In this document: piece after piece, positions 435 to 63,994 of the stretch
How positions within the stretch are numbered: position 1 is the first letter of the stretch
Layout of the letters: every line of letters starts with the position of its first letter
Source of the DNA: Sedimentisphaerales bacterium
GTDB taxonomy: Bacteria; Planctomycetota; Phycisphaerae; Sedimentisphaerales; UBA12454
NCBI GenBank assembly: GCA_050014075.1
Contig: JBEKEA010000002.1
Location: 26,860 to 90,859, forward strand
Length of the DNA stretch: 64,000 nucleotides
Reading direction: 5' to 3'
The notes under the pieces: generated by a model
The model's input: only the letters and a program-made list of their open reading frames with translations
What the model was told of the DNA's origin: nothing
Databases searched by the model: none
Made by a program: the position numbers and the translations under genes

Positions 435-471
435 AGTTATCGGTTATCTGTTATCAGTTATCTGTTATCAG
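435..471. repeat. heptad tandem element, GTTATCN unit x5
   Basis: Reads agttatc ggttatc tgttatc agttatc tgttatc, then AGCACGAGCGG. The same junction GGTTATCAGCACGA recurs at 34972-34985. Confidence 0.85.
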
Positions 472-540
472 CACGAGCGGCTTCGACGATGTGTTTTTTG
501 TTATTGAAGCCAATTGAAAGCGGGGGTATAATTTAGGAAT

Positions 541-570
541 AGTTATCAGGGAGCAGTTATCGGTTATCAG
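541..570. repeat. heptad tandem element, GTTATCN family
   Basis: Reads agttatc agggagc agttatc ggttatc, with 7-bp phasing. Confidence 0.75.
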
Positions 571-722
571 CGAAAAAAGAAATATGAGACAGAAGACATC
601 AATCATGCGAAGGTTCGCCGAGTAATACGTGATGGTGGTTTTGTAAATGGTTATTAGTAAATTAAGATGTTATGTGGATTAATCTAATTATTATTCGATG
701 AGAGAGAATGACGGGAGGATTT

Positions 723-8579: not shown

Positions 8580-10136
8580 ATGAATAAAATATCAAGCAAA
8601 TATTATGTCCCTTTAATCTGCATTGCCCTGGCATTTATAAACCTGGCGGTTTACTTGCAAGTCCTCAATCACGATTTCATCGACTTTGATGATGACCTGT
8701 ATGTTACTAAAAATACCAATGTGCAATCCGGCCTGACCTTAAAAGACATAAAATGGGCCTTCACAACGAACCAGGCGTATAATTGGCATCCATTGACTTG
8801 GATATCGCATATGCTGGATTGCCAGCTTTATGGTTTAAATCCTGCCGGCCATCACTTCACAAATGTAATTTTTCACATAGCGAATACCTTATTTTTATTT
8901 CTGGTCTTCAAACGTATGACCGGTAACTTATGGCAAAGTGCTTTTGTTGCAGCCCTGTTTTCTCTGCACCCGCTTCATGTTGAATCAGTTGCCTGGGTCT
9001 CGGAGCGAAAAGACGTCCTCAGCACCTTTTTCTTGTTGCTCACTATATGGTTTTACATACGCTACACTCATCACCGACGGCTCGCTGATTACCTGCTGGT
9101 TATGCTTACCTTAGCGCTAGGCCTAATGGCCAAACAAATGCTGGTAACACTACCGTTTGTTCTGCTTCTATTAGACTATTGGCCTCTGCAGCGATTTACA
9201 TGGCCGTTAAAACAAAAAAAACATAAAGGTACATCTGCAACAACTTCACTTTCTCGCTGCTTCGTGGAGAAAGTGCCCTTTTTGGCTTTGTCTTTTATCG
9301 CAAGTCTAATCGTTCTTTATGTCCAATCAAAAGCTACGCTTGTAAGAAGCACAATTCAGATGCCAATCGTTTTTCGCATTGCAAATGCAATTCTTGCTTA
9401 TACAAAATATATCACAGAGATGTTCTGGCCCTTTCATTTGGGGATTCTTTATCCATACCCACAGACCAATCCTCAACTGTGGCAGGTTTTGACCGCTGGC
9501 TTACTGCTTCTGTGCATCACTGCCATAGTGTTCCGTTTGTCCCGCAACCGTCGCTGGCTCATAGTTGGATGGCTCTGGTACCTTGGAACCCTCGTTCCCG
9601 TAATCGGACTGGTGCAGGTCGGACTTCAGTCAATGGCTGACCGCTACACCTATGTCCCTTTCATTGGTCTATTCATCATCATTACATGGGGCGCCGCCGA
9701 ACTTATTGCAAAACTAAAATACAAGAATATTATCTTTGCAGCAGGTGCCGGGGTGGTGCTCCTGGTTTTATCGGTACTCACTTGGCTGCAACTGTCATAC
9801 TGGGAAAATAGCATTACATTGCTTGAGCATACCGTAGCTGTCACTGCCAACAATGATATTATACACTACAACCTGGGCATACTGCTGATAGAGCAAGGCA
9901 AGACTGACCAGGCCATTGAACATTGGCTTGAAGCCGTAAGAATCAGGCCTGAACAGCCGACAATTCACAATAATCTTGCGATTTTATTTGCTAAGCAGGG
10001 CAAAATCGAGGAGGCAATCCAACAATATCGCCAGGTGCTCAAATACAGACCTAACGATACCGTCGCATATAACCGCCTTAAAGCCCTCTTGGCCGCTCAA
10101 GAGAAATCTGCTGCCGAAGACAAAACTCCGAAATAA
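8580..10136 (+). CDS. TMTC/DUF1736-type GT-C glycosyltransferase with TPR repeats, paralog 4
   Basis: 518 aa, with FIDFDDDLYV, HPLHVESVAWVSERKDVLSTFF and a C-terminal TPR region. No SD is visible upstream; it abuts the polA-remnant ORF. Confidence 0.8.
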   Translation: MNKISSKYYVPLICIALAFINLAVYLQVLNHDFIDFDDDLYVTKNTNVQSGLTLKDIKWAFTTNQAYNWHPLTWISHMLDCQLYGLNPAGHHFTNVIFHIANTLFLFLVFKRMTGNLWQSAFVAALFSLHPLHVESVAWVSERKDVLSTFFLLLTIWFYIRYTHHRRLADYLLVMLTLALGLMAKQMLVTLPFVLLLLDYWPLQRFTWPLKQKKHKGTSATTSLSRCFVEKVPFLALSFIASLIVLYVQSKATLVRSTIQMPIVFRIANAILAYTKYITEMFWPFHLGILYPYPQTNPQLWQVLTAGLLLLCITAIVFRLSRNRRWLIVGWLWYLGTLVPVIGLVQVGLQSMADRYTYVPFIGLFIIITWGAAELIAKLKYKNIIFAAGAGVVLLVLSVLTWLQLSYWENSITLLEHTVAVTANNDIIHYNLGILLIEQGKTDQAIEHWLEAVRIRPEQPTIHNNLAILFAKQGKIEEAIQQYRQVLKYRPNDTVAYNRLKALLAAQEKSAAEDKTPK

Positions 10137-19204: not shown

Positions 19205-19279
19205 CGGGGTGTAGCTCAGTTTGGCTAGAGCGCCTGGTTTGGGACCAGGAGGCCGTAGGTTCGAATCCTATCACCCCGA
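19205..19279 (+). tRNA. tRNA-Pro (anticodon UGG)
   Basis: A manual cloverleaf fits. Acceptor CGGGGTG/CACCCCG, D-arm GCTC/GAGC, anticodon stem CCTGG/CCAGG with loop TTTGGGA (anticodon TGG, G37), T-arm GTAGG-TTCGAAT-CCTAT, discriminator A. CCA is not encoded. Confidence 0.9.
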
Positions 19280-34689: not shown

Positions 34690-34985
34690 AGTTAGGTCGA
34701 AAAACCCTTCGACTGCGCTCAGGGCAGGCGACGTAAAAAATGACGTAAGTCCTTTGTTTTCGAGGGGGTTTTTTATGTAAGTGTTTGCAGGGACAAGTTT
34801 TAGTGGCGTAATCCGCTAAGGGATGCCTCACGGCAGCCATCTCGACGATATAGATTTTGATTTTTTTGCCCTGTTTTGGAATGATTTACCCCTGTTTTTT
34901 GATGATTTTGGTGTTTTTTTAAATACAGTTATCGGTTATCAGATCATCAAGTTATTGGGAAACGGTTATCGGTTATCAGCACGAA
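34690..34985. repeat. mosaic repeat block B ending in a heptad element
   Basis: Shares TTCGACTGCGCTCAGGGCAGG, GTAAGTCCTTTG, GGGACAAGTTTTAGT, GATTTTGATTTTTTTGCCCTGTTTT and TTTTGGTGTTTTTTTAAAT with blocks A and C. Region 34927-34985 holds GTTATCN heptads, followed by GCGGGGGGATTTTTTATGG, which is also at 55029-55046. Confidence 0.75.
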
Positions 34986-53988: not shown

Positions 53989-53997
53989 TTGACTGGA

Positions 53998-54026
53998 GTT
54001 GATAGTTGGTAGTTGATAGTCATAAG
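53998..54026. repeat. heptad tandem element (GTTGATA, inverted orientation of TATCAAC)
   Basis: Reads gttgata gttggta gttgata gtcataag, 10 nt after the dacB stop. Confidence 0.85.
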
Positions 54027-55073
54027 TCGTTTGTTTACGTTGAAAAAACGTAAAAAGGTGCATTTCATAAGTCCTTTATTTGCGTACTGTTTTTTTGAAA
54101 AATGGTTTGTAAGTTTTTAGCGGGACAAGTTTTAGTAAAGATTTTGAAAAATTTTGAAAATTTTGGATTATTTTGAACGAATTTTGATTTTTTTGCCATG
54201 TTTTTATACGATTTTTCACTTTTTTTAATCACTGATTACGCAGATATAAAAGATATGTTTTCACCACAGAGAGCACCGAGGCCACAGAGATTTTTAGACG
54301 CTGATCCGCCTCCGTCAAGGACTATGGTGGACAAGTTTCGCAGATTACGTTCACCACGAAGGGCGGAAGAAACACGAAGACAATATTAATTTCACCACCG
54401 AGCCACAGAGCTCATCTGCCGTCGCTACGAGCTATGGCGGACAGGCAGAACGCACAGAGGCGATATTGCTTTAAGACATCCCTACGGGATTTAATAATTC
54501 TAAAATCAAACCCTCCCTGAAGCCGACCCATTCGACTACGCTCAGGGTAGGGCTTCGTCCGGGTTTATATTTTGTAATTATTGCCCCTAAGGGGCTTTTG
54601 TCTTAAAGCAATAGAACATTTTCACTATGCTGTATTGCAGTATACTGTAATACAGTATACTGCATACGAGTATAGAGATTTAAGATTTTTGATACTGGGA
54701 GTTTTTGATACTAAAGATTTTTTGAAGAAAGGGGAATTAGTGCAGGCGTCCGCCGTCGTCCCTAAGGGCTTCCGTCTTCGCCAAAAGGCTACGAACGGAC
54801 AGGATGACGAGATCTTCGCTTCGCTCCGAGGCGGATAAAAGTCGGTGGTGGTGGTTTTTGGTGTTGTAGGGGGCCCCCTTGCGGGGGTTTCCGCTGCGCT
54901 CCAACGCTGTGGCTCCGACGAAAAATTCTTTTTATAAAAGTGTTTTACGTAGCCACTAAGTCACCAAGACACGAAGATAATTTTAAATTCTAAATTTTTA
55001 ATGTTGAATTGCGGAGCCACCGAAAGCGGGGGAATTTTTTATGCGGCAAAAAGGAAATTTAAAATAGGTGACT
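54027..55073. repeat. gene-free mosaic repeat block C (about 1 kb)
   Basis: Region 54066-54154 matches block A (reverse complement) and partly block B. It has multiple CACCACAGAG/CACCGAGCCACAGAG units, four CCG(Y)C..TCGC...CTA(T/C)GG(Y)GGACAGG-type hairpin modules, GACTACGCTCAGGGTAGG, GAGGCGGATAAAAG and GAAAGCGGGGGAATTTTTTATG, plus a perfect palindrome at 54636-54664. Confidence 0.8.
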
Positions 55074-55099
55074 GTCCCTAGTTTTTCCTATTTTTCCAA

Positions 55100-55318
55100 T
55101 TAAGCCAATCCGTCTTTGAACTTTGGTGCAAGTACGTTCCCTCCTGGGAGGATAGTTTTATCCTCTCTTTGGATGGATCCTGGTTTGATAGCATCTCTCG
55201 GAATTTTCTTAACCTCGTGAGAGTATGGCTCGATGATCTCATAGTTCCCGTTTTTGTCAACGCGAATGTCATCTGCGCGACGGGTTTGACCGGCAATATT
55301 TAAACGAAACCTTGACAT
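55100..55318 (-). CDS. 72-aa orphan protein with strong expression signals
   Basis: MSRFRLNIAGQTRRADDIRVDKNGNYEIIEPYSHEVKKIPRD... with SD AAGAGGTG 5 nt upstream and a consensus promoter at 55363-55391. I recognise no family. Confidence 0.6.
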   Translation of the reverse strand: MSRFRLNIAGQTRRADDIRVDKNGNYEIIEPYSHEVKKIPRDAIKPGSIQREDKTILPGGNVLAPKFKDGLA

Positions 55319-55362
55319 AATTACACCTCTTTTCGAATAAAAATCTGTTTATTCTGGTGTAA

Positions 55363-55391
55363 ATTATAGGTAACTGTCATATAGTAGTCAA
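55363..55391 (-). promoter_or_regulatory. near-consensus sigma70 promoter for the 72-aa gene
   Basis: The minus strand reads TTGACT (55386-55391), 17 nt, TATAAT (55363-55368), about 45 nt upstream of the ATG at 55318. Confidence 0.6.
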
Positions 55392-55433
55392 GTCAAAAAA
55401 CATACAAAATAAATAAACGGCCACTATTTATTC

Positions 55434-55457
55434 GTCCCCTATTTATTCCTATTTTTT
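55434..55457. repeat. GTCCC-CTATTTATT-CCTATTTT boundary element (left of R-M pair)
   Basis: GTCCCCTATTTATTCCTATTTTTT. There is a direct copy at 55074-55095, an inverted copy at 57793-57822, and a related copy at 63961-63994. Confidence 0.65.
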
Positions 55458-55503
55458 CTTGAGATTTTAAAACAAAGATGCTGGATGACTTTCCCCAAAA
55501 ATA

Positions 55504-57009
55504 TCAAAACATTACCAATTGATGCGTCTCATTATTTTCAATCATATCGTTTTTCCCGCAAAAACCAGCAAGCTTTACAAGGCTAAGTAGATTCAATATT
55601 TCCAGAGTGATTGGTCTTTTGGAATCCCACCAGACATAGGCAGATAAAAATTCTTTTGCCGCCTGCGAAGATAACAATTCATAAAAAATTTCAGCCTGTT
55701 CTTTCGACCTGCAACTCAGAAAATAACAGGTATCATCAAAAACAACAGGCTTGTCATTATAAGGACCTATAAGACGAAATCGTATATTTTTATAGAAACC
55801 TGAGATGGCAATTTTCCAATCAGTAAAGGTATAATCTCCAATACCGAAAATTGAAAACTGCGGATTGTTTTTATATATAACACTTGTTCTTTGTTCAAAT
55901 AGGTCCGCATATTTCTTCAAATAATTCCAAGTTTTAGGCGAATGCTGTTTAATAACACTTGTTTGCTCGCCAACAAAATGCTGCGGCACAAGCATATAAC
56001 GATTTATAATTTTGATTTCACCATTAGCCAAATCGGAACTTTTAAGCATTGGGAAAAGACAATCATCTTCCAACTCAACCATTTCTCCAAAACCATTTAT
56101 ATAATGGTTACTTTCTTTTTTAAGCTCCATAACTTTAACACAGTCATGTTTTATGCCGGAACGCCATTTAAAAGGTTCACTTTTATCTGCCGATAGATGT
56201 TTCCACTTTTCAAATAACACAATATCAGGAATAAGACGATTTACTTTAAAAGCAGCGGTATGTTCAAGTGAGTTGCGATCAAAATTTTTATAAATTTTGC
56301 ACTGAAGAGTAGGATTTCTCTGTCCAATTTTGATCACGAAGAAGCAAGCATCCACTGCAACTTCAAAATGCTGCTGTGAGTTGATTTTGTATATATTGCT
56401 CCATTCGAGAGGCAACTGATTTTTCCACTGATAAAGCAATACTTTTCGAGCAACGGCAGTTTTACAGAGCATTGCCAAGCAGGCATCTCGACCTTTGAGC
56501 CGGTCTAACATACTGATTATCATCCATTCAGAAATATCAAAATTGCTCTTTCCTGTGACGGCATCCAGACCTTTCATATTCTGGAAGTTCGATTTTCCTG
56601 GCAGGTTTTTACCGCCAAAACTCCCCATCCCTGAATTAGTAACCCAAGGAGGATTGCCGATGACAAGAATCGGATCCGGCATTGATTCTATCTGTTTTTG
56701 CCAGTCGAAAGAAAAGAAATCACCTTGTTTTATCGCGGGTGTGACATTATTTATAAACGGCGTGATTTTCTCGCGAGCTTCGCTCAAATATTCTTCTGAT
56801 ATATCAAGACCGAAACATTGTTTTGCCGAGGTGAATACTTCCAATGCGGCAAATAAAAAATTACCTCTACCACACGTAGGTTCGATTATCGAAGCAGGAG
56901 AAAGTTCAGCTTTCAGTAGCAAACAAGCTTCTTTAGCCAAATCTCGTGGAGTCTGCCAATCGCCTAATTCTATTTTCTTTTTGTTTTTTGAAATATTCAT
57001 TATTAACAA
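55504..57009 (-). CDS. N6-adenine DNA methyltransferase (gamma-class, Eco57I/TaqI-like) with C-terminal target-recognition region
   Basis: Motif I IIEPTCGRGNFLFAALE and motif IV VIGNPPWV, in the gamma order. 501 aa. The region is visibly AT-rich relative to its neighbours. Confidence 0.8.
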   Translation of the reverse strand: MLIMNISKNKKKIELGDWQTPRDLAKEACLLLKAELSPASIIEPTCGRGNFLFAALEVFTSAKQCFGLDISEEYLSEAREKITPFINNVTPAIKQGDFFSFDWQKQIESMPDPILVIGNPPWVTNSGMGSFGGKNLPGKSNFQNMKGLDAVTGKSNFDISEWMIISMLDRLKGRDACLAMLCKTAVARKVLLYQWKNQLPLEWSNIYKINSQQHFEVAVDACFFVIKIGQRNPTLQCKIYKNFDRNSLEHTAAFKVNRLIPDIVLFEKWKHLSADKSEPFKWRSGIKHDCVKVMELKKESNHYINGFGEMVELEDDCLFPMLKSSDLANGEIKIINRYMLVPQHFVGEQTSVIKQHSPKTWNYLKKYADLFEQRTSVIYKNNPQFSIFGIGDYTFTDWKIAISGFYKNIRFRLIGPYNDKPVVFDDTCYFLSCRSKEQAEIFYELLSSQAAKEFLSAYVWWDSKRPITLEILNLLSLVKLAGFCGKNDMIENNETHQLVMF

Positions 57010-57671
57010 ATCTTTTGAATACCTTTAACTTTTCCCGCCTCATTAATTATACGTTGGTACTGAAGCCGCCATTGAAGTGCATTTGAAATAGTGAGATAAC
57101 CCATTTGAGGTGGATTCTTGAGGAGTTCTTGTGCTATTTTCTCAGCTTCAATGTCATCCACCGGCAACATTCTTTCATGTAAAAAGGCAACGATATCGTC
57201 GACATTTCCTTTATTTTCAATTATCTTACGAAGTCCTGTAGTCGTCTGGAAATCACCTGTGTTGTCTTTTTCGACAAATATAGTATGTAAAATCTTCAGT
57301 CTACCTGTTTTAAACTTTCCATCGTCAGTTTTGTCATAGACAAAAACGAGAAGAGAATAACCTAATCCATAAATTTTTTGCCGCGCTGACCTGTAAGGAC
57401 AGGAAGACTGAGGCTGCTTGATACTTGTAACTTTTATATCCACATTTAACTGCGGAAAATCTATTCCTGAAGCGGAATTACCTTCTGAAAAATCATACTT
57501 TCCAGACAAATACATTCGGAATTTCTGTTCAAAATAAGTACCTATGGCCTTCCCATCGGTTACTCCGAAAATAGCGGGTTCATCGTGTTTTGATTCGCGA
57601 ACAGCAAAATAATGAGCTTCTTCACAGAGTTTAGCCTCGCTTAATTTTAGTTTTGCCTTCATCCGTGCCAC
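57003..57671 (-). CDS. putative type II restriction endonuclease (PD-(D/E)XK-like)
   Basis: Overlaps the methyltransferase start by 7 nt. Candidate catalytic segment GIDFPQLNVDIKVT (D...D-x-K). No named family recognised. The start may be the ATG at 57662. Confidence 0.5.
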   Translation of the reverse strand: MARMKAKLKLSEAKLCEEAHYFAVRESKHDEPAIFGVTDGKAIGTYFEQKFRMYLSGKYDFSEGNSASGIDFPQLNVDIKVTSIKQPQSSCPYRSARQKIYGLGYSLLVFVYDKTDDGKFKTGRLKILHTIFVEKDNTGDFQTTTGLRKIIENKGNVDDIVAFLHERMLPVDDIEAEKIAQELLKNPPQMGYLTISNALQWRLQYQRIINEAGKVKGIQKIC

Positions 57672-57792
57672 AGGCCTACTTTAAGATAAATTGAAATTTA
57701 AAACCGCCAAAAATAGCAAACTAATCTTATCAGAATAATGACAGACAGGCAATAAAAAAGAACAGCACTAATTCAATTTATTTTACCGTAGT

Positions 57793-57870
57793 AAAATAGG
57801 AGTAAATAAATAGGTGCGGGACAGGCAAACCCTGCCAAGGTCCGCCTGAGGCGGATAAATGTTGGCAGGG
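57793..57870. repeat. inverted boundary element plus nested hairpin module ending GGGCTAACC
   Basis: AAAATAGG (57793-57800), AATAAATAG (57805-57813) and GGGAC (57818-57822) mirror the left element. Stem CCCTGCCAA (57830-38) pairs with TTGGCAGGG (57862-70) and encloses TCCGCCTGAGGCGGATAAA. Confidence 0.65.
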
Positions 57871-59157: not shown

Positions 59158-59183
59158 CTCAGTTATCAGTTATCGGTTATCAG
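59158..59183. repeat. heptad tandem element, GTTATCN family
   Basis: Reads ctcagttatc agttatc ggttatc ag, starting right after the stop codon at 59155-59157. Confidence 0.8.
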
Positions 59184-59225
59184 AAAATCAGGTTTGAAAT
59201 TGAAGATTAACGGAGTGAACAAACG

Positions 59226-63960: not shown

Positions 63961-63994
63961 CCCCTCACAAATCCTATTTTTTCCCTATTTTTCC
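63961..63994. repeat. CCTATTTTT tandem element upstream of the GspE-like gene
   Basis: CCCCTCACAAATCCTATTTTTTCCCTATTTTTCC is related to the elements at 55074-55095 and 55434-55457. Confidence 0.55.

What the first reader, a model, noticed from the sequence alone, without database searches (positions are those of the whole stretch)
55074..57870. AT-rich type II R-M cassette bracketed by a recurring GTCCC / CTATTT(A)TT / CCTATTTT element
**The cassette.** The nuclease gene (57003-57671) and the gamma-class N6-adenine methyltransferase (55504-57009) overlap by 7 nt. They are visibly more AT-rich than the flanking dacB and histidine-kinase genes.

**The bracketing element.**

| Position | Orientation | Note |
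|---|---|---|
| 55434-55457 | reference copy, GTCCC CTATTTATT CCTATTTT | left of the pair |
| 57793-57822 | inverted | same three blocks, with two 4-nt insertions |
| 55074-55095 | direct | on the far side of the neighbouring 72-aa gene |
| 63961-63994 | related | upstream of the GspE-like gene |

**Interpretation.**
- The element delimits gene-sized modules.
- That pattern would be expected for cassette boundaries (recombination sites) or for a shared regulatory site.
- No integrase or transposase lies adjacent.
Basis: partly seen in the sequence, partly recalled or inferred. Interest (0 to 1): 0.6.

Follow-up and report, generated by a model that had tools for sequence, protein, structure and literature searches.

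The report
Ordinary restriction-modification pair amid short repeats
A normal, horizontally acquired restriction-modification gene pair sits in a gene-swapping slot of a planctomycete genome. The short repeat on either side of it is real, but it belongs to the host's repeat-rich spacer DNA and not to a mobile cassette.

Summary
The gene pair is confirmed. R (57003-57662, minus strand) is an NspV-family type II endonuclease. M (55504-57000, minus strand) is a gamma-class N6-adenine methyltransferase. GC is 36.9%, against 45.2% for neighbouring genes.

The pair lies in a slot between the convergent dacB and histidine-kinase genes:
- The slot is empty in five more distant relatives.
- It holds unrelated cargo in the two closest relatives.

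The repeat is real (phased CCTATTT doublets, far above shuffle expectation), but three points weaken the cassette reading:
- **It does not travel with the R-M.** Homologous R-M units in two other genomic contexts end 30-46 nt inside the repeats and lack them.
- **Copy c1 is inherited slot-edge sequence.** It matches the same edge in both close relatives.
- **Copy 63961-63994 is the conserved GspE 5' leader.** Its "GCCCC" is the complement of the ribosome-binding site.

No target-site duplication, hairpin, integrase or transposase was found. The genome carries other short intergenic repeat families too.

Best reading: this is a host-side interspersed repeat or junction sequence, and nothing shows it to be an active recombination or regulatory site. 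The genome-wide distribution could not be tested. Interest is low to moderate.

The parts
57003..57662 (-).
   Evidence: NF052465 at 6e-103, 342.5 bits against cutoff 290. PADLOC REase_II at 2.6e-100. PF27258 NspV precomputed. More than 8000 homologues, 65-95% identical, across phyla.
55504..57000 (-). M gene: 498-aa gamma-class N6-adenine DNA methyltransferase, with motif I EPTCGRGNF and motif IV NPPW.
   Evidence: PADLOC MTase_II PDLC03310 at 6.9e-169. Pfam N6_Mtase 21.1 bits against cutoff 20.4. The exact protein occurs on 6 metagenome contigs. The ATG start is conserved in L010 and L011.
55502..57762 (.). The R-M unit as defined by homology, running from its own promoter region to the M stop codon.
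   Evidence: 83.7% nt identity over 2261 nt to L010, which lies in a different genomic context (ilvC/rubrerythrin). Homology with L022 starts about 105 nt upstream of the R ATG.
57663..57765 (-). R-M promoter and 5' UTR. Candidate -35 TTGCCT and -10 TAAGAT with a 17-nt spacer, conserved with homologues.
   Evidence: Alignment A4 shows near-invariant TTGCYT...TCATTATTCTGATA...TTAAAGTARGCCTGT...ATG in the window, L010 and L022. Promoter function is inferred.
55434..55457 (+). c2: GTCCC CTATTTATTC CTATTTTTTC, 46 nt outside the R-M unit and about 43 nt upstream of the -35 of the 72-aa ORF promoter.
55406..55433 (+). c2' (S2): AAAATAAATAAACGGCCACTATTTATTC, a second partial copy of the slot-edge sequence S, abutting c2.
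   Evidence: 22/27 identity to L008 12303-12329. It is the second-best hit of the L008 and L017 S queries, at 18.5, which is borderline.
57793..57822 (-). c3: GTCCC GCAC CTATTTATT TACT CCTATTTT. It is inverted relative to c2, 30 nt outside the R-M unit and 6 nt from the HK terminator hairpin.
   Evidence: The outer GGGAC overlaps a GCGGGA shared with L017.
55033..55099 (+). S1, containing c1 (55074-55095: GTCCC TAGTTTTTC CTATTTTTCC). This is the inherited left edge of the variable slot.
   Evidence: It is the best hit of the L008 and L017 edge sequences in the window slot: scores 23 and 22 against null 95th percentiles of 20.5 and 18.5. In L017 the homologous sequence is the 5' coding end of a 93-aa ORF.
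55100..55318 (-). 72-aa orphan ORF containing a single NHL-like beta repeat.
   Evidence: Only itself was found by word search. HMMER matches residues 10-44 to NHL repeats of large propeller proteins. AF2 gives pLDDT 75 with five strands.
55363..55391 (-). Sigma-70-type promoter TTGACT-17-TATAAT for the 72-aa ORF.
   Evidence: 11/12 consensus match, the best in the region. AAGAGGTG lies before the ATG.
63961..63994 (+). c4: CCTATTTTTT CCCTATTTTT doublet in the GspE 5' leader. GCCCC is the complement of the GspE Shine-Dalgarno sequence. It is not a module boundary.
   Evidence: The region is syntenic and conserved in L008 and L017, but the half-sites drift: GGAAAACAGGGAAAAAATAGG in L008, and the second site is partly deleted in L017.
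57829..57870 (.). Ancestral HK/dacB terminator hairpin CCCTGCCAA...TTGGCAGGG. A 20-nt GC-rich mini-hairpin (TCCGCCTGAGGCGGATAAAT) is inserted in its loop.
   Evidence: Alignment with L017 and L008.
53989..55032 (.). About 1 kb of non-coding, repeat-rich filler (REP-like GC hairpins, CACGAAG-type arrays, palindromes) between the dacB stop and S1.
   Evidence: No ORF with a family match. No Rfam hit. Repeats shared with L008 and L017.

Best explanation
**The R-M pair.**
- It is a conventional NspV-family type IIP restriction-modification operon, R then M, driven by its own promoter about 100 nt upstream of R.
- By family assignment, M should methylate the adenine of TTCGAA and R should cut unmethylated TTCGAA. 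This target is inferred, not shown.
- The pair was acquired horizontally as a minimal unit of about 2.26 kb, from promoter to M stop. This is shown by homology with two other genomic contexts and by its low GC.

**The slot.**
- The unit lies in a lineage-specific variable slot between the convergent core genes dacB and a histidine kinase.
- The slot is empty in five more distant relatives.
- It holds unrelated cargo in the two closest relatives.

**The repeat.**
- It is a short pyrimidine-rich motif: two CCTATTT units 10-14 nt apart, sometimes preceded by GTCC(C).
- It belongs to the host's slot and spacer DNA, not to the R-M unit.
- c1 descends from sequence at the left edge of the slot (shown).
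- c2 and c3 are further copies or near-copies at the junctions of the orphan-ORF module and the R-M unit (shown).

**How the arrangement arose (inferred).**
- Such copies arise, and are reused, when successive pieces of DNA are inserted or exchanged by illegitimate, short-homology or target-duplicating recombination in repeat-rich spacer DNA.
- On this view the copies are passive junction or interspersed repeats. They are one of several short tandem-unit repeat families in this genome, not dedicated recombination or operator sites.
- The GspE-leader copy is an unrelated occurrence of the same low-complexity motif.
For: **R-M identity**
-.

**Foreign composition**
- GC 0.369 against 0.452 +/- 0.034.

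**Unit boundaries**
- Window 55502-57762 matches L010 at 83.7% in a different context.
- L022 (R 95% identical at the protein level) shares only about 105 nt upstream of R and lacks c3.
- The L010 flanks lack the element.

**Variable slot**
- dacB and HK are adjacent in L007, L009, L018, L019 and L021.
- The cargo differs in L008 (SDH-type protease) and L017 (HU-like protein plus 93-aa and 205-aa ORFs).

**c1 is ancestral**
- The edge sequences of L008 and L017 hit 55033-55099 best, above the 95th percentile of shuffles.

**Other short repeat families exist**
- GTTATCN heptamer arrays occur at six or more intergenic sites.
- Only 2% of intergenic 24-mers have 3 or more relatives, and all of those belong to such families.

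**No mobility apparatus**
- No integrase or transposase within about 10 kb.
- No significant hairpin.
- No target-site duplication.

**No strain polymorphism**
- Five metagenome contigs are 100% identical to the window.
Against: - Inverted copies exactly bracket the R-M unit, 46 and 30 nt from its homology ends. This is more orderly than random interspersion predicts. Shuffle-based expectations for such matches are very low.
- Direct copies bracket the orphan-ORF module.
- All four copies lie in the last 9 kb of a 64-kb window, with none in the other roughly 25 intergenic regions. The element is therefore not evenly interspersed.
- A 26-nt near-identical copy lies next to an IS200-like Y1 transposase gene in an unrelated metagenome contig. 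This hints at a mobilisable repeat.
- The genome-wide distribution in the source organism could not be examined. The one metagenome scan did not even recover the known JGI contigs of this species, so it had little power.
Confidence: 0.5

Rival explanations
1. The element is the end or recombination site of non-autonomous cassettes that a recombinase or transposase encoded elsewhere moves in trans. One candidate is an IS200-like Y1/HUH enzyme. On this view c2 and c3 are the terminal inverted repeats of an R-M-carrying unit, and c1 and c2 bound an orphan-ORF cassette.
For: - Inverted c2/c3 bracket the R-M, and direct c1/c2 bracket the 72-aa module.
- The ancestral slot edge S resembles the element, as expected if insertion targets sequences like its own ends.
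- The slot content turns over between close relatives.
- L013 carries the element (25 of 26 nt with one indel) 50 nt upstream of a Y1_Tnp gene flanked by inverted ACGTACGTCCC.
- R-M units flanked by imperfect inverted repeats, without a transposase, are documented (PMC2853133).
Against: - There is no target-site duplication outside c2/c3 or c1/c3.
- The inverted repeats are short and need two 4-nt indels to align.
- R-M homologues in L010 and L022 lack them.
- The cargo in L008 and L017 is not bounded by a second copy.
- No Y1 or other transposase lies in the window or related loci.
- The metagenome pattern scan gave 4 hits, about the rough number I estimated for chance. Three of them are in clearly unrelated DNA.
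- The outer GGGAC of c3 looks like resident flank.
Confidence: 0.15
2. The element is an operator: two helically phased direct half-sites bound by a transcription factor. That factor would co-regulate the R-M operon, the orphan ORF and the GspE/HEAT divergent promoters.
For: - Half-sites are spaced 10, 11 and 14 nt apart.
- c2 and c3 each end about 40 nt upstream of a -35 hexamer.
- c4 lies in a divergent regulatory region.
- All copies are intergenic.
Against: - c2 and c3 have opposite orientation relative to their promoters.
- c1 has no gene downstream.
- The c4 half-sites change (T to C) or are partly deleted in L008 and L017, while the adjacent promoter is nearly invariant. The site is absent in L019.
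- R-M homologues keep the same promoter without the element.
- No DNA-binding regulator is encoded nearby. The neighbouring response regulator is receiver-only, and the 72-aa ORF is an all-beta NHL-like repeat.
Confidence: 0.12
3. The similarity is coincidental. Independent local tandem duplications of A/T-rich decamers in AT-rich spacer DNA happen to share a 7-mer. A GTCCC block that has different origins in each copy makes the similarity look stronger.
For: - Individually the matches are only marginally above shuffle maxima: 15-16 against a mean of 13.1 and a maximum of 15.
- GTCCC is edge sequence in c1, probable resident flank in c3, and a Shine-Dalgarno complement in c4.
- Gapped alignments of any two intergenic regions here reach similar raw scores.
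Against: - Three extra sites at >=15 are expected 0.053 times.
- Eight of the 13 AAATAGG 7-mers in 64 kb lie in the four sites.
- c2 ranks in the top 2% of real intergenic 24-mers.
Confidence: 0.15

Closest known systems
NspV / AsuII / BstBI-type type IIP R-M systems (TTCGAA)
   Same: - R matches the NspV Pfam family and the NCBIfam type II REase equivalog above cutoff.
- It has an adjacent co-directional gamma-class m6A methyltransferase.
- The R-then-M pair is conserved in every homologous locus examined.
   Different: - Specificity is untested.
- TTCGAA is not depleted in the window: 24 observed against 31.6 expected. In Microcystis, by contrast, it is extremely rare (PMC2779907).
- This is consistent with recent acquisition but does not prove it.
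Transposon-like R-M units flanked by imperfect inverted repeats, and R-M insertion with long target duplication (Furuta, Abe & Kobayashi 2010, PMC2853133)
   Same: - The R-M has no linked mobility gene and is bracketed by short imperfect inverted repeats.
- A neighbouring module is bracketed by direct repeats.
- Related genomes with an empty site exist.
   Different: - The published cases have 26-65-bp inverted repeats, an 8-bp target duplication, and repeats unique to the inserted unit.
- Here the repeats are 22-30 nt with indels and have no target duplication.
- One copy is ancestral host sequence.
- The repeats do not accompany the R-M elsewhere.
- A clean long-target-duplication example exists instead in homologue locus L011.
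Integron gene cassettes (attC) and Xer-dependent pdif modules
   Same: Gene-sized modules are separated by a recurring short site, some in alternating orientation.
   Different: - No integrase is present.
- There is no attC palindrome or GTTRRRY core.
- There is no 11-6-11 dif-like architecture; the units are direct repeats.
- Hairpin potential is not significant.
REP/REPIN-type interspersed intergenic repeats and their RAYT (Y1) transposases
   Same: - It is a short intergenic repeat occurring in both orientations.
- The genome is rich in other short repeat families.
- One near-identical copy lies next to a Y1 transposase gene in L013.
   Different: - There is no imperfect-palindrome hairpin.
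- Only four copies are seen, and they are clustered.
- No RAYT gene lies in the window.
- The link to L013 cannot be distinguished statistically from a chance hit.

Membership tests
NspV-family type IIP restriction endonuclease (PF27258 / NF052465) | The sequence matches the family model above the curated cutoff. | tested here: met
   NF052465 at 342.5 bits against cutoff 290, E 6e-103. PF27258 precomputed on the identical gene.
NspV-family type IIP restriction endonuclease (PF27258 / NF052465) | A cognate methyltransferase is encoded next to it as a conserved pair. | tested here: met
   R is followed by the same MTase family in the window, L010, L011, L012, L022 and an ENA contig.
NspV-family type IIP restriction endonuclease (PF27258 / NF052465) | It recognises and cuts TTCGAA, and M methylates it. 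| not testable with these tools
   The target is inferred from the family name only (NspV = TTCGAA, PMC2779907). TTCGAA is 24 observed against 31.6 expected, so there is no avoidance signal.
Gamma-class N6-adenine DNA methyltransferase | The AdoMet motif I precedes the catalytic motif IV (NPPY/W), with the target-recognition domain C-terminal. | tested here: met
   EPTCGRGNF at about residue 44 and GNPPW at about residue 118, followed by about 370 C-terminal residues. N6_Mtase 21.1 bits against cutoff 20.4. PADLOC MTase_II at 6.9e-169.
Transposon-like R-M unit with terminal inverted repeats (Furuta 2010) | Imperfect inverted repeats flank the R-M genes. | tested here: met
   c2 and c3 match in three blocks of 5, 9 and 8 nt with two 4-nt indels. 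The match is short and weak.
Transposon-like R-M unit with terminal inverted repeats (Furuta 2010) | A short direct target-site duplication lies just outside the repeats and matches the empty site. | tested here: not met
   Flanks are ...TATTTATTC|GTCCC and GGGAC|AGGCAAACC for c2/c3, and ...GGTGAC|TGTCCC for c1. No duplication of 2-9 nt is present.
Transposon-like R-M unit with terminal inverted repeats (Furuta 2010) | The repeats belong to the inserted unit. They are absent from the recipient's relatives and accompany the R-M. | tested here: not met
   L010 and L022 carry the R-M unit without the repeats. c1 is homologous to slot-edge DNA of relatives.
R-M insertion with long target duplication | Direct repeats of 30 bp or more flank the inserted R and M, with a single copy at the empty site. 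| tested here: not met
   The repeats around the R-M are inverted and shorter than 30 nt. Only the 72-aa module is flanked by direct S1/S2 copies, about 68% identical, which is inconclusive.
Integron cassette array (attC) | An integron integrase or attI lies nearby. attC is an imperfect palindrome with an RYYYAAC/GTTRRRY core. | tested here: not met
   There is no integrase within about 10 kb. No core sites are present. Fold z-scores range from -2.0 to +0.6.
Xer-dependent pdif modules | A 28-nt site made of two inverted 11-nt arms around a 6-nt spacer. | tested here: not met
   The element consists of direct repeats of a 10-14-nt unit.
C-protein-controlled R-M (C-box operator) | A small helix-turn-helix controller gene lies in the operon and its operator lies upstream. 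| tested here: not met
   The only small ORF is all-beta and NHL-like. It is absent from the other R-M loci.
REP/RAYT interspersed repeats | Hairpin-forming imperfect palindromes present in many copies, with copies flanking a RAYT gene. | tested here: inconclusive
   The hairpin feature is not met. Genome-wide copy number could not be tested. One Y1_Tnp-adjacent copy in L013 is a lead only.

The most novel reading that the evidence does not exclude
The GTCC(C)/CCTATTT doublet is the recognition end of a family of non-autonomous gene cassettes in Phycisphaerae. These include an R-M cassette and an orphan-ORF cassette. A trans-acting enzyme inserts them at a slot whose edge mimics the element. 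One candidate is an IS200-like Y1/HUH transposase of the kind seen next to a near-identical copy in L013. This would be a new way for R-M systems to move without linked mobility genes.
Probability: 0.1. Interest if true: 0.6.

Novelty: new member of a known kind. Interest (0 to 1): 0.25.

Why it matters
As it stands, this is one more example of a minimal R-M unit dropped into a strain-variable slot between convergent core genes, in a little-studied, uncultured lineage (Phycisphaerae/Sedimentisphaerales-like).

It is useful mainly as a well-delimited case:
- Three independent contexts define the transferred unit as "promoter to M stop".
- Seven relatives (five empty, two with other cargo) define the slot.

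If the flanking repeat turned out to be an active recombination end, it would explain how R-M genes move without linked mobility genes. That question has been open since the comparative work of Kobayashi and colleagues. The present evidence does not favour that reading.

Tried and rejected
- **Rfam, tRNA and terminator scans** of 53.8-58.0 kb found no RNA family. The only tRNA in the window is at 19205. Terminator-like hits were at background level.
- **Hairpin or attC-like structure** of the copies was not significant.
- **Target-site duplications** around c2/c3 or c1/c3: none.
- **Pattern scan of metagenome contigs** gave 4 hits, about the rough number I estimated for chance.
  - L014 is phage-like coding DNA and L015/L016 are eukaryote-like.
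  - The scan failed to return known JGI contigs of this species, so it says little.
- **Pattern scan of viral contigs**: 0 hits.
- **tblastn of the L013 Y1 transposase** against the window and all loci: nothing.
- **A second copy of the edge sequence in the L008 and L017 slots**: none above the null. The right-edge similarities I saw by eye there (AAAATAGG-N6-GTCCATAG in L017, CCACTATAG in L008) are therefore discarded.
- **Homology of the whole c3 region to the right flank of L017**: not significant, P = 0.13.
- **TTCGAA avoidance** as support for the predicted target: absent.
- **PDB sequence search** for R and M: no hits.
- **72-aa ORF as a controller or DNA-binding protein**: rejected. The fold is a small all-beta unit and the sequence matches a single NHL repeat.
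- **PADLOC and Pfam on the alternative cargo** of L008 and L017: no defence-system match.
- **Raw gapped alignment scores between whole intergenic regions** are not a usable null. Long, gappy AT-rich alignments inflate them. I replaced this with a 24-mer query test.

Full report
**Organism and source.**
- The window is 100% identical to ENA contig ERZ27250059 k141_190663 and to four short JGI/Logan contigs.
- The nearest genomes found with dacB as query are Phycisphaerales/Planctomycetota MAGs: fen_1357 at 91% dacB protein identity, and two others at 65-70%.
- The source species itself is not among the representative genomes that were searched.

**The gene pair.**
- ORF 57003-57662 (minus strand, 219 aa from its ATG) matches NCBIfam NF052465, "type II R-M system restriction endonuclease", at 342.5 bits against a cutoff of 290. 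It also matches PADLOC REase_II. The precomputed Pfam annotation of the identical gene is PF27258 NspV.
- The family is very large and strongly conserved: more than 8000 hits, 65-70% identity across phyla. This is typical of a horizontally circulating enzyme.
- ORF 55504-57000 (minus strand, 498 aa) matches PADLOC MTase_II PDLC03310 at 6.9e-169 and Pfam N6_Mtase just above cutoff. EPTCGRGNF precedes GNPPW, which is the gamma-class order.
- NspV recognises TTCGAA (PMC2779907). That target is inferred here, not shown.
- TTCGAA is not depleted in the window: 24 observed against 31.6 expected. This fits a recent arrival but proves nothing.
- The "7-nt overlap" depends on an upstream TTG. The ATG at 57000 corresponds to the start used in L010 and L011 and gives TAA-TA-ATG.
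- GC of the unit is 0.369, against 0.452 +/- 0.034 for 44 other genes.

**What travels as the R-M unit.**

| Locus | R protein identity | Context | Result |
|---|---|---|---|
| L010 (a different genome, R named Sedimentisphaerales, in the same sample) | 88% | between ilvC and a rubrerythrin gene | nucleotide homology covers window 55502-57762 (83.7% over 2261 nt) and stops there |
| L022 | 95% | short contig | upstream homology starts about 105 nt before the R ATG; further upstream the sequence is unrelated |
| L011 | 79% | a third context | the pair is flanked by a direct repeat of about 34 nt, a textbook long target duplication |

- None of these loci carries the CCTATTT element.
- The transferred unit is therefore "own promoter to M stop".

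**The slot.**
- dacB and the histidine kinase converge.
- In L007, L009, L018, L019 and L021 (HK 70-82% identical) the two genes are 2-50 nt apart.
- In the two closest relatives the slot is filled with other things:
  - L008 has an SDH-type ClpP-like protease and an 88-aa ORF.
  - L017 has an HU-like gene and ORFs of 93 and 205 aa.
- In the window the slot holds, in order:
  1. about 1 kb of repeat-rich filler;
  2. a 72-aa ORF with a near-perfect sigma-70 promoter;
  3. the R-M unit.
- No integrase or transposase lies within about 10 kb.

**The element: is it real?** Yes.
- c2 and c3 both satisfy the gapped pattern, with 0 expected.
- c1 is 18/20 identical to c2.
- Eight of the 13 AAATAGG 7-mers in 64 kb lie in the four sites.
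- Phased doublets number 6, against 0.28 expected.
- With c2 as query, three other intergenic sites reach a score of 15 or more, against 0.053 expected.
- Only 2% of real intergenic 24-mers do as well.

The core is a doublet of CCTATTT at 10 nt (c1, c2), 11 nt (c4) or 14 nt (c3).

**The element: what the copies are.**
- **c1.**
  - The slot-edge sequences of L008 and L017 find their best match in the window at 55033-55099. Scores are 23 and 22, against 95th percentiles of 20.5 and 18.5 (alignment).
  - In L017 this stretch is the 5' coding end of the 93-aa ORF. In L008 and the window the reading frame is broken.
  - c1 is therefore inherited edge sequence and possibly a gene remnant.
- **c2.**
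  - The second-best match of both queries is the c2 region (18.5, borderline).
  - There, a further partial copy (55406-33) abuts c2.
- **c3.**
  - It has a perfect doublet.
  - Its outer GGGAC overlaps a GCGGGA that L017 also has next to the shared terminator hairpin.
  - Wider homology is not significant.
- **c4.**
  - It lies in a syntenic regulatory region that is conserved in L008 and L017.
  - Its GCCCC is the complement of the GspE Shine-Dalgarno sequence.
  - Its half-sites drift in relatives while the neighbouring promoter is nearly invariant.
  - It delimits nothing.
- **Relatives.** L008 and L017 have no second copy of the edge sequence at the far side of their cargo.

**Mechanistic features sought and not found.**
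- No target-site duplication.
- No significant hairpin.
- No Rfam family.
- No recombinase.

**Leads.**
- One metagenome contig (L013) carries a 26-nt near-copy 50 nt upstream of an IS200-like Y1 transposase gene. That gene is itself flanked by inverted ACGTACGTCCC.
- The scan returned about the rough number of hits I estimated for chance, and the other hits are clearly unrelated. I treat L013 as a lead only.
- The scan did not recover known JGI contigs of this species, so it cannot speak to the element's distribution.

**Context of other repeats.** The same genome carries other short tandem-unit intergenic families:
- GTTATCN heptamer arrays at six or more sites;
- CACGAAG-type arrays;
- GC-rich mini-hairpins, one of them inserted in the loop of the HK terminator.

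The CCTATTT doublet fits this class.

**Conclusion.**
- The R-M identification stands.
- The element is real, but it is host-side. It is best read as a short interspersed or junction repeat of a repeat-rich, recombination-prone slot, and not as the boundary of the mobile R-M cassette.
- A trans-mobilised cassette end, an operator, or coincidence remain possible at roughly 0.15, 0.12 and 0.15.
- The closest literature is Furuta et al. 2010 (PMC2853133). It describes R-M units flanked by inverted repeats with 8-bp target duplications, and insertions with long target duplication. This locus fails the target-duplication and "repeats travel with the unit" criteria.

Noticed in passing
L011 5848-5888 and 8290-8330: A homologous R-M pair (R 79% identical) in another Phycisphaerae genome is flanked by a direct repeat of about 34 nt, GAGATTGATGTAATCATACATAATATGATTGCCC. 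This is a clean example of R-M insertion with long target duplication.
   Followed up: partly
L013 260-290, 340-1338, 1350-1420: An IS200-like Y1 transposase gene (332 aa, PF01797) is flanked by inverted ACGTACGTCCC. The CCTATTT element lies outside one end. Four tandem copies of GTCCCTTATAACCCC lie outside the other.
   Followed up: partly
window 55100-55318 (-) and promoter 55363-55391: The 72-aa ORF is an orphan with the best sigma-70 promoter in the region. Its residues 10-44 match a single NHL beta-propeller repeat of very large proteins. Only one small (69-aa) homologue appeared among 1.84 billion representative proteins. It may be an expressed single-blade protein or a gene fragment.
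   Followed up: yes
window 438-580, 17860, 34926-34985, 37900, 59158-59190; also L017 about 9700-9720: Arrays of the heptamer GTTATC(N) (for example CAGTTATCAGTTATCGGTTATCAG) recur in at least six intergenic regions. They form a separate short repeat family of unknown role.
   Followed up: partly
window 57829-57870: The shared dacB/HK terminator hairpin CCCTGCCAA/TTGGCAGGG has a 20-nt GC-rich mini-hairpin (TCCGCCTGAGGCGGATAAAT) inserted in its loop, compared with L017. Related GAGGCGGATAAA units occur at 54828 and in L008 and L017.
   Followed up: partly
window 54622-54678: A dense cluster of overlapping palindromes (TATACTGTAATACAGTATA and similar) lies in the non-coding filler between dacB and c1.
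   Followed up: no
whole window: Several palindromic hexamers are strongly under-represented. ACATGT is 0 observed against 2.2 expected, GTCGAC 3 against 11.7, CTCGAG 4 against 11.2, and CAGCTG 4 against 11.0. The predicted target TTCGAA is not. This suggests older R-M pressure from other systems.
   Followed up: no
L010 10493-11113; ENA ERZ1426815 contig gene 2544-3155: HNH_3 genes lie close to NspV-family R-M pairs in two other contexts. The L010 gene also has an AP2 domain; the ENA gene carries only the HNH_3 annotation. They are homing-endonuclease-like and could be linked to mobility.
   Followed up: no
window 57676-57695 and 57772-57791: A 20-nt, 85% complementary inverted repeat brackets the R promoter. 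The outer arm lies just outside the conserved R-M unit. Transcripts reading through from HK could pair it with the region just upstream of the R start codon. The repeat is not unusual in length for this AT-rich region.
   Followed up: no
L008 12320-13733; L017 7888-9550: The same slot in the two closest relatives holds other cargo. L008 has an SDH-type ClpP-like serine protease plus an 88-aa ORF. L017 has an HU-like protein plus ORFs of 93 and 205 aa. None matches a PADLOC defence model.
   Followed up: partly
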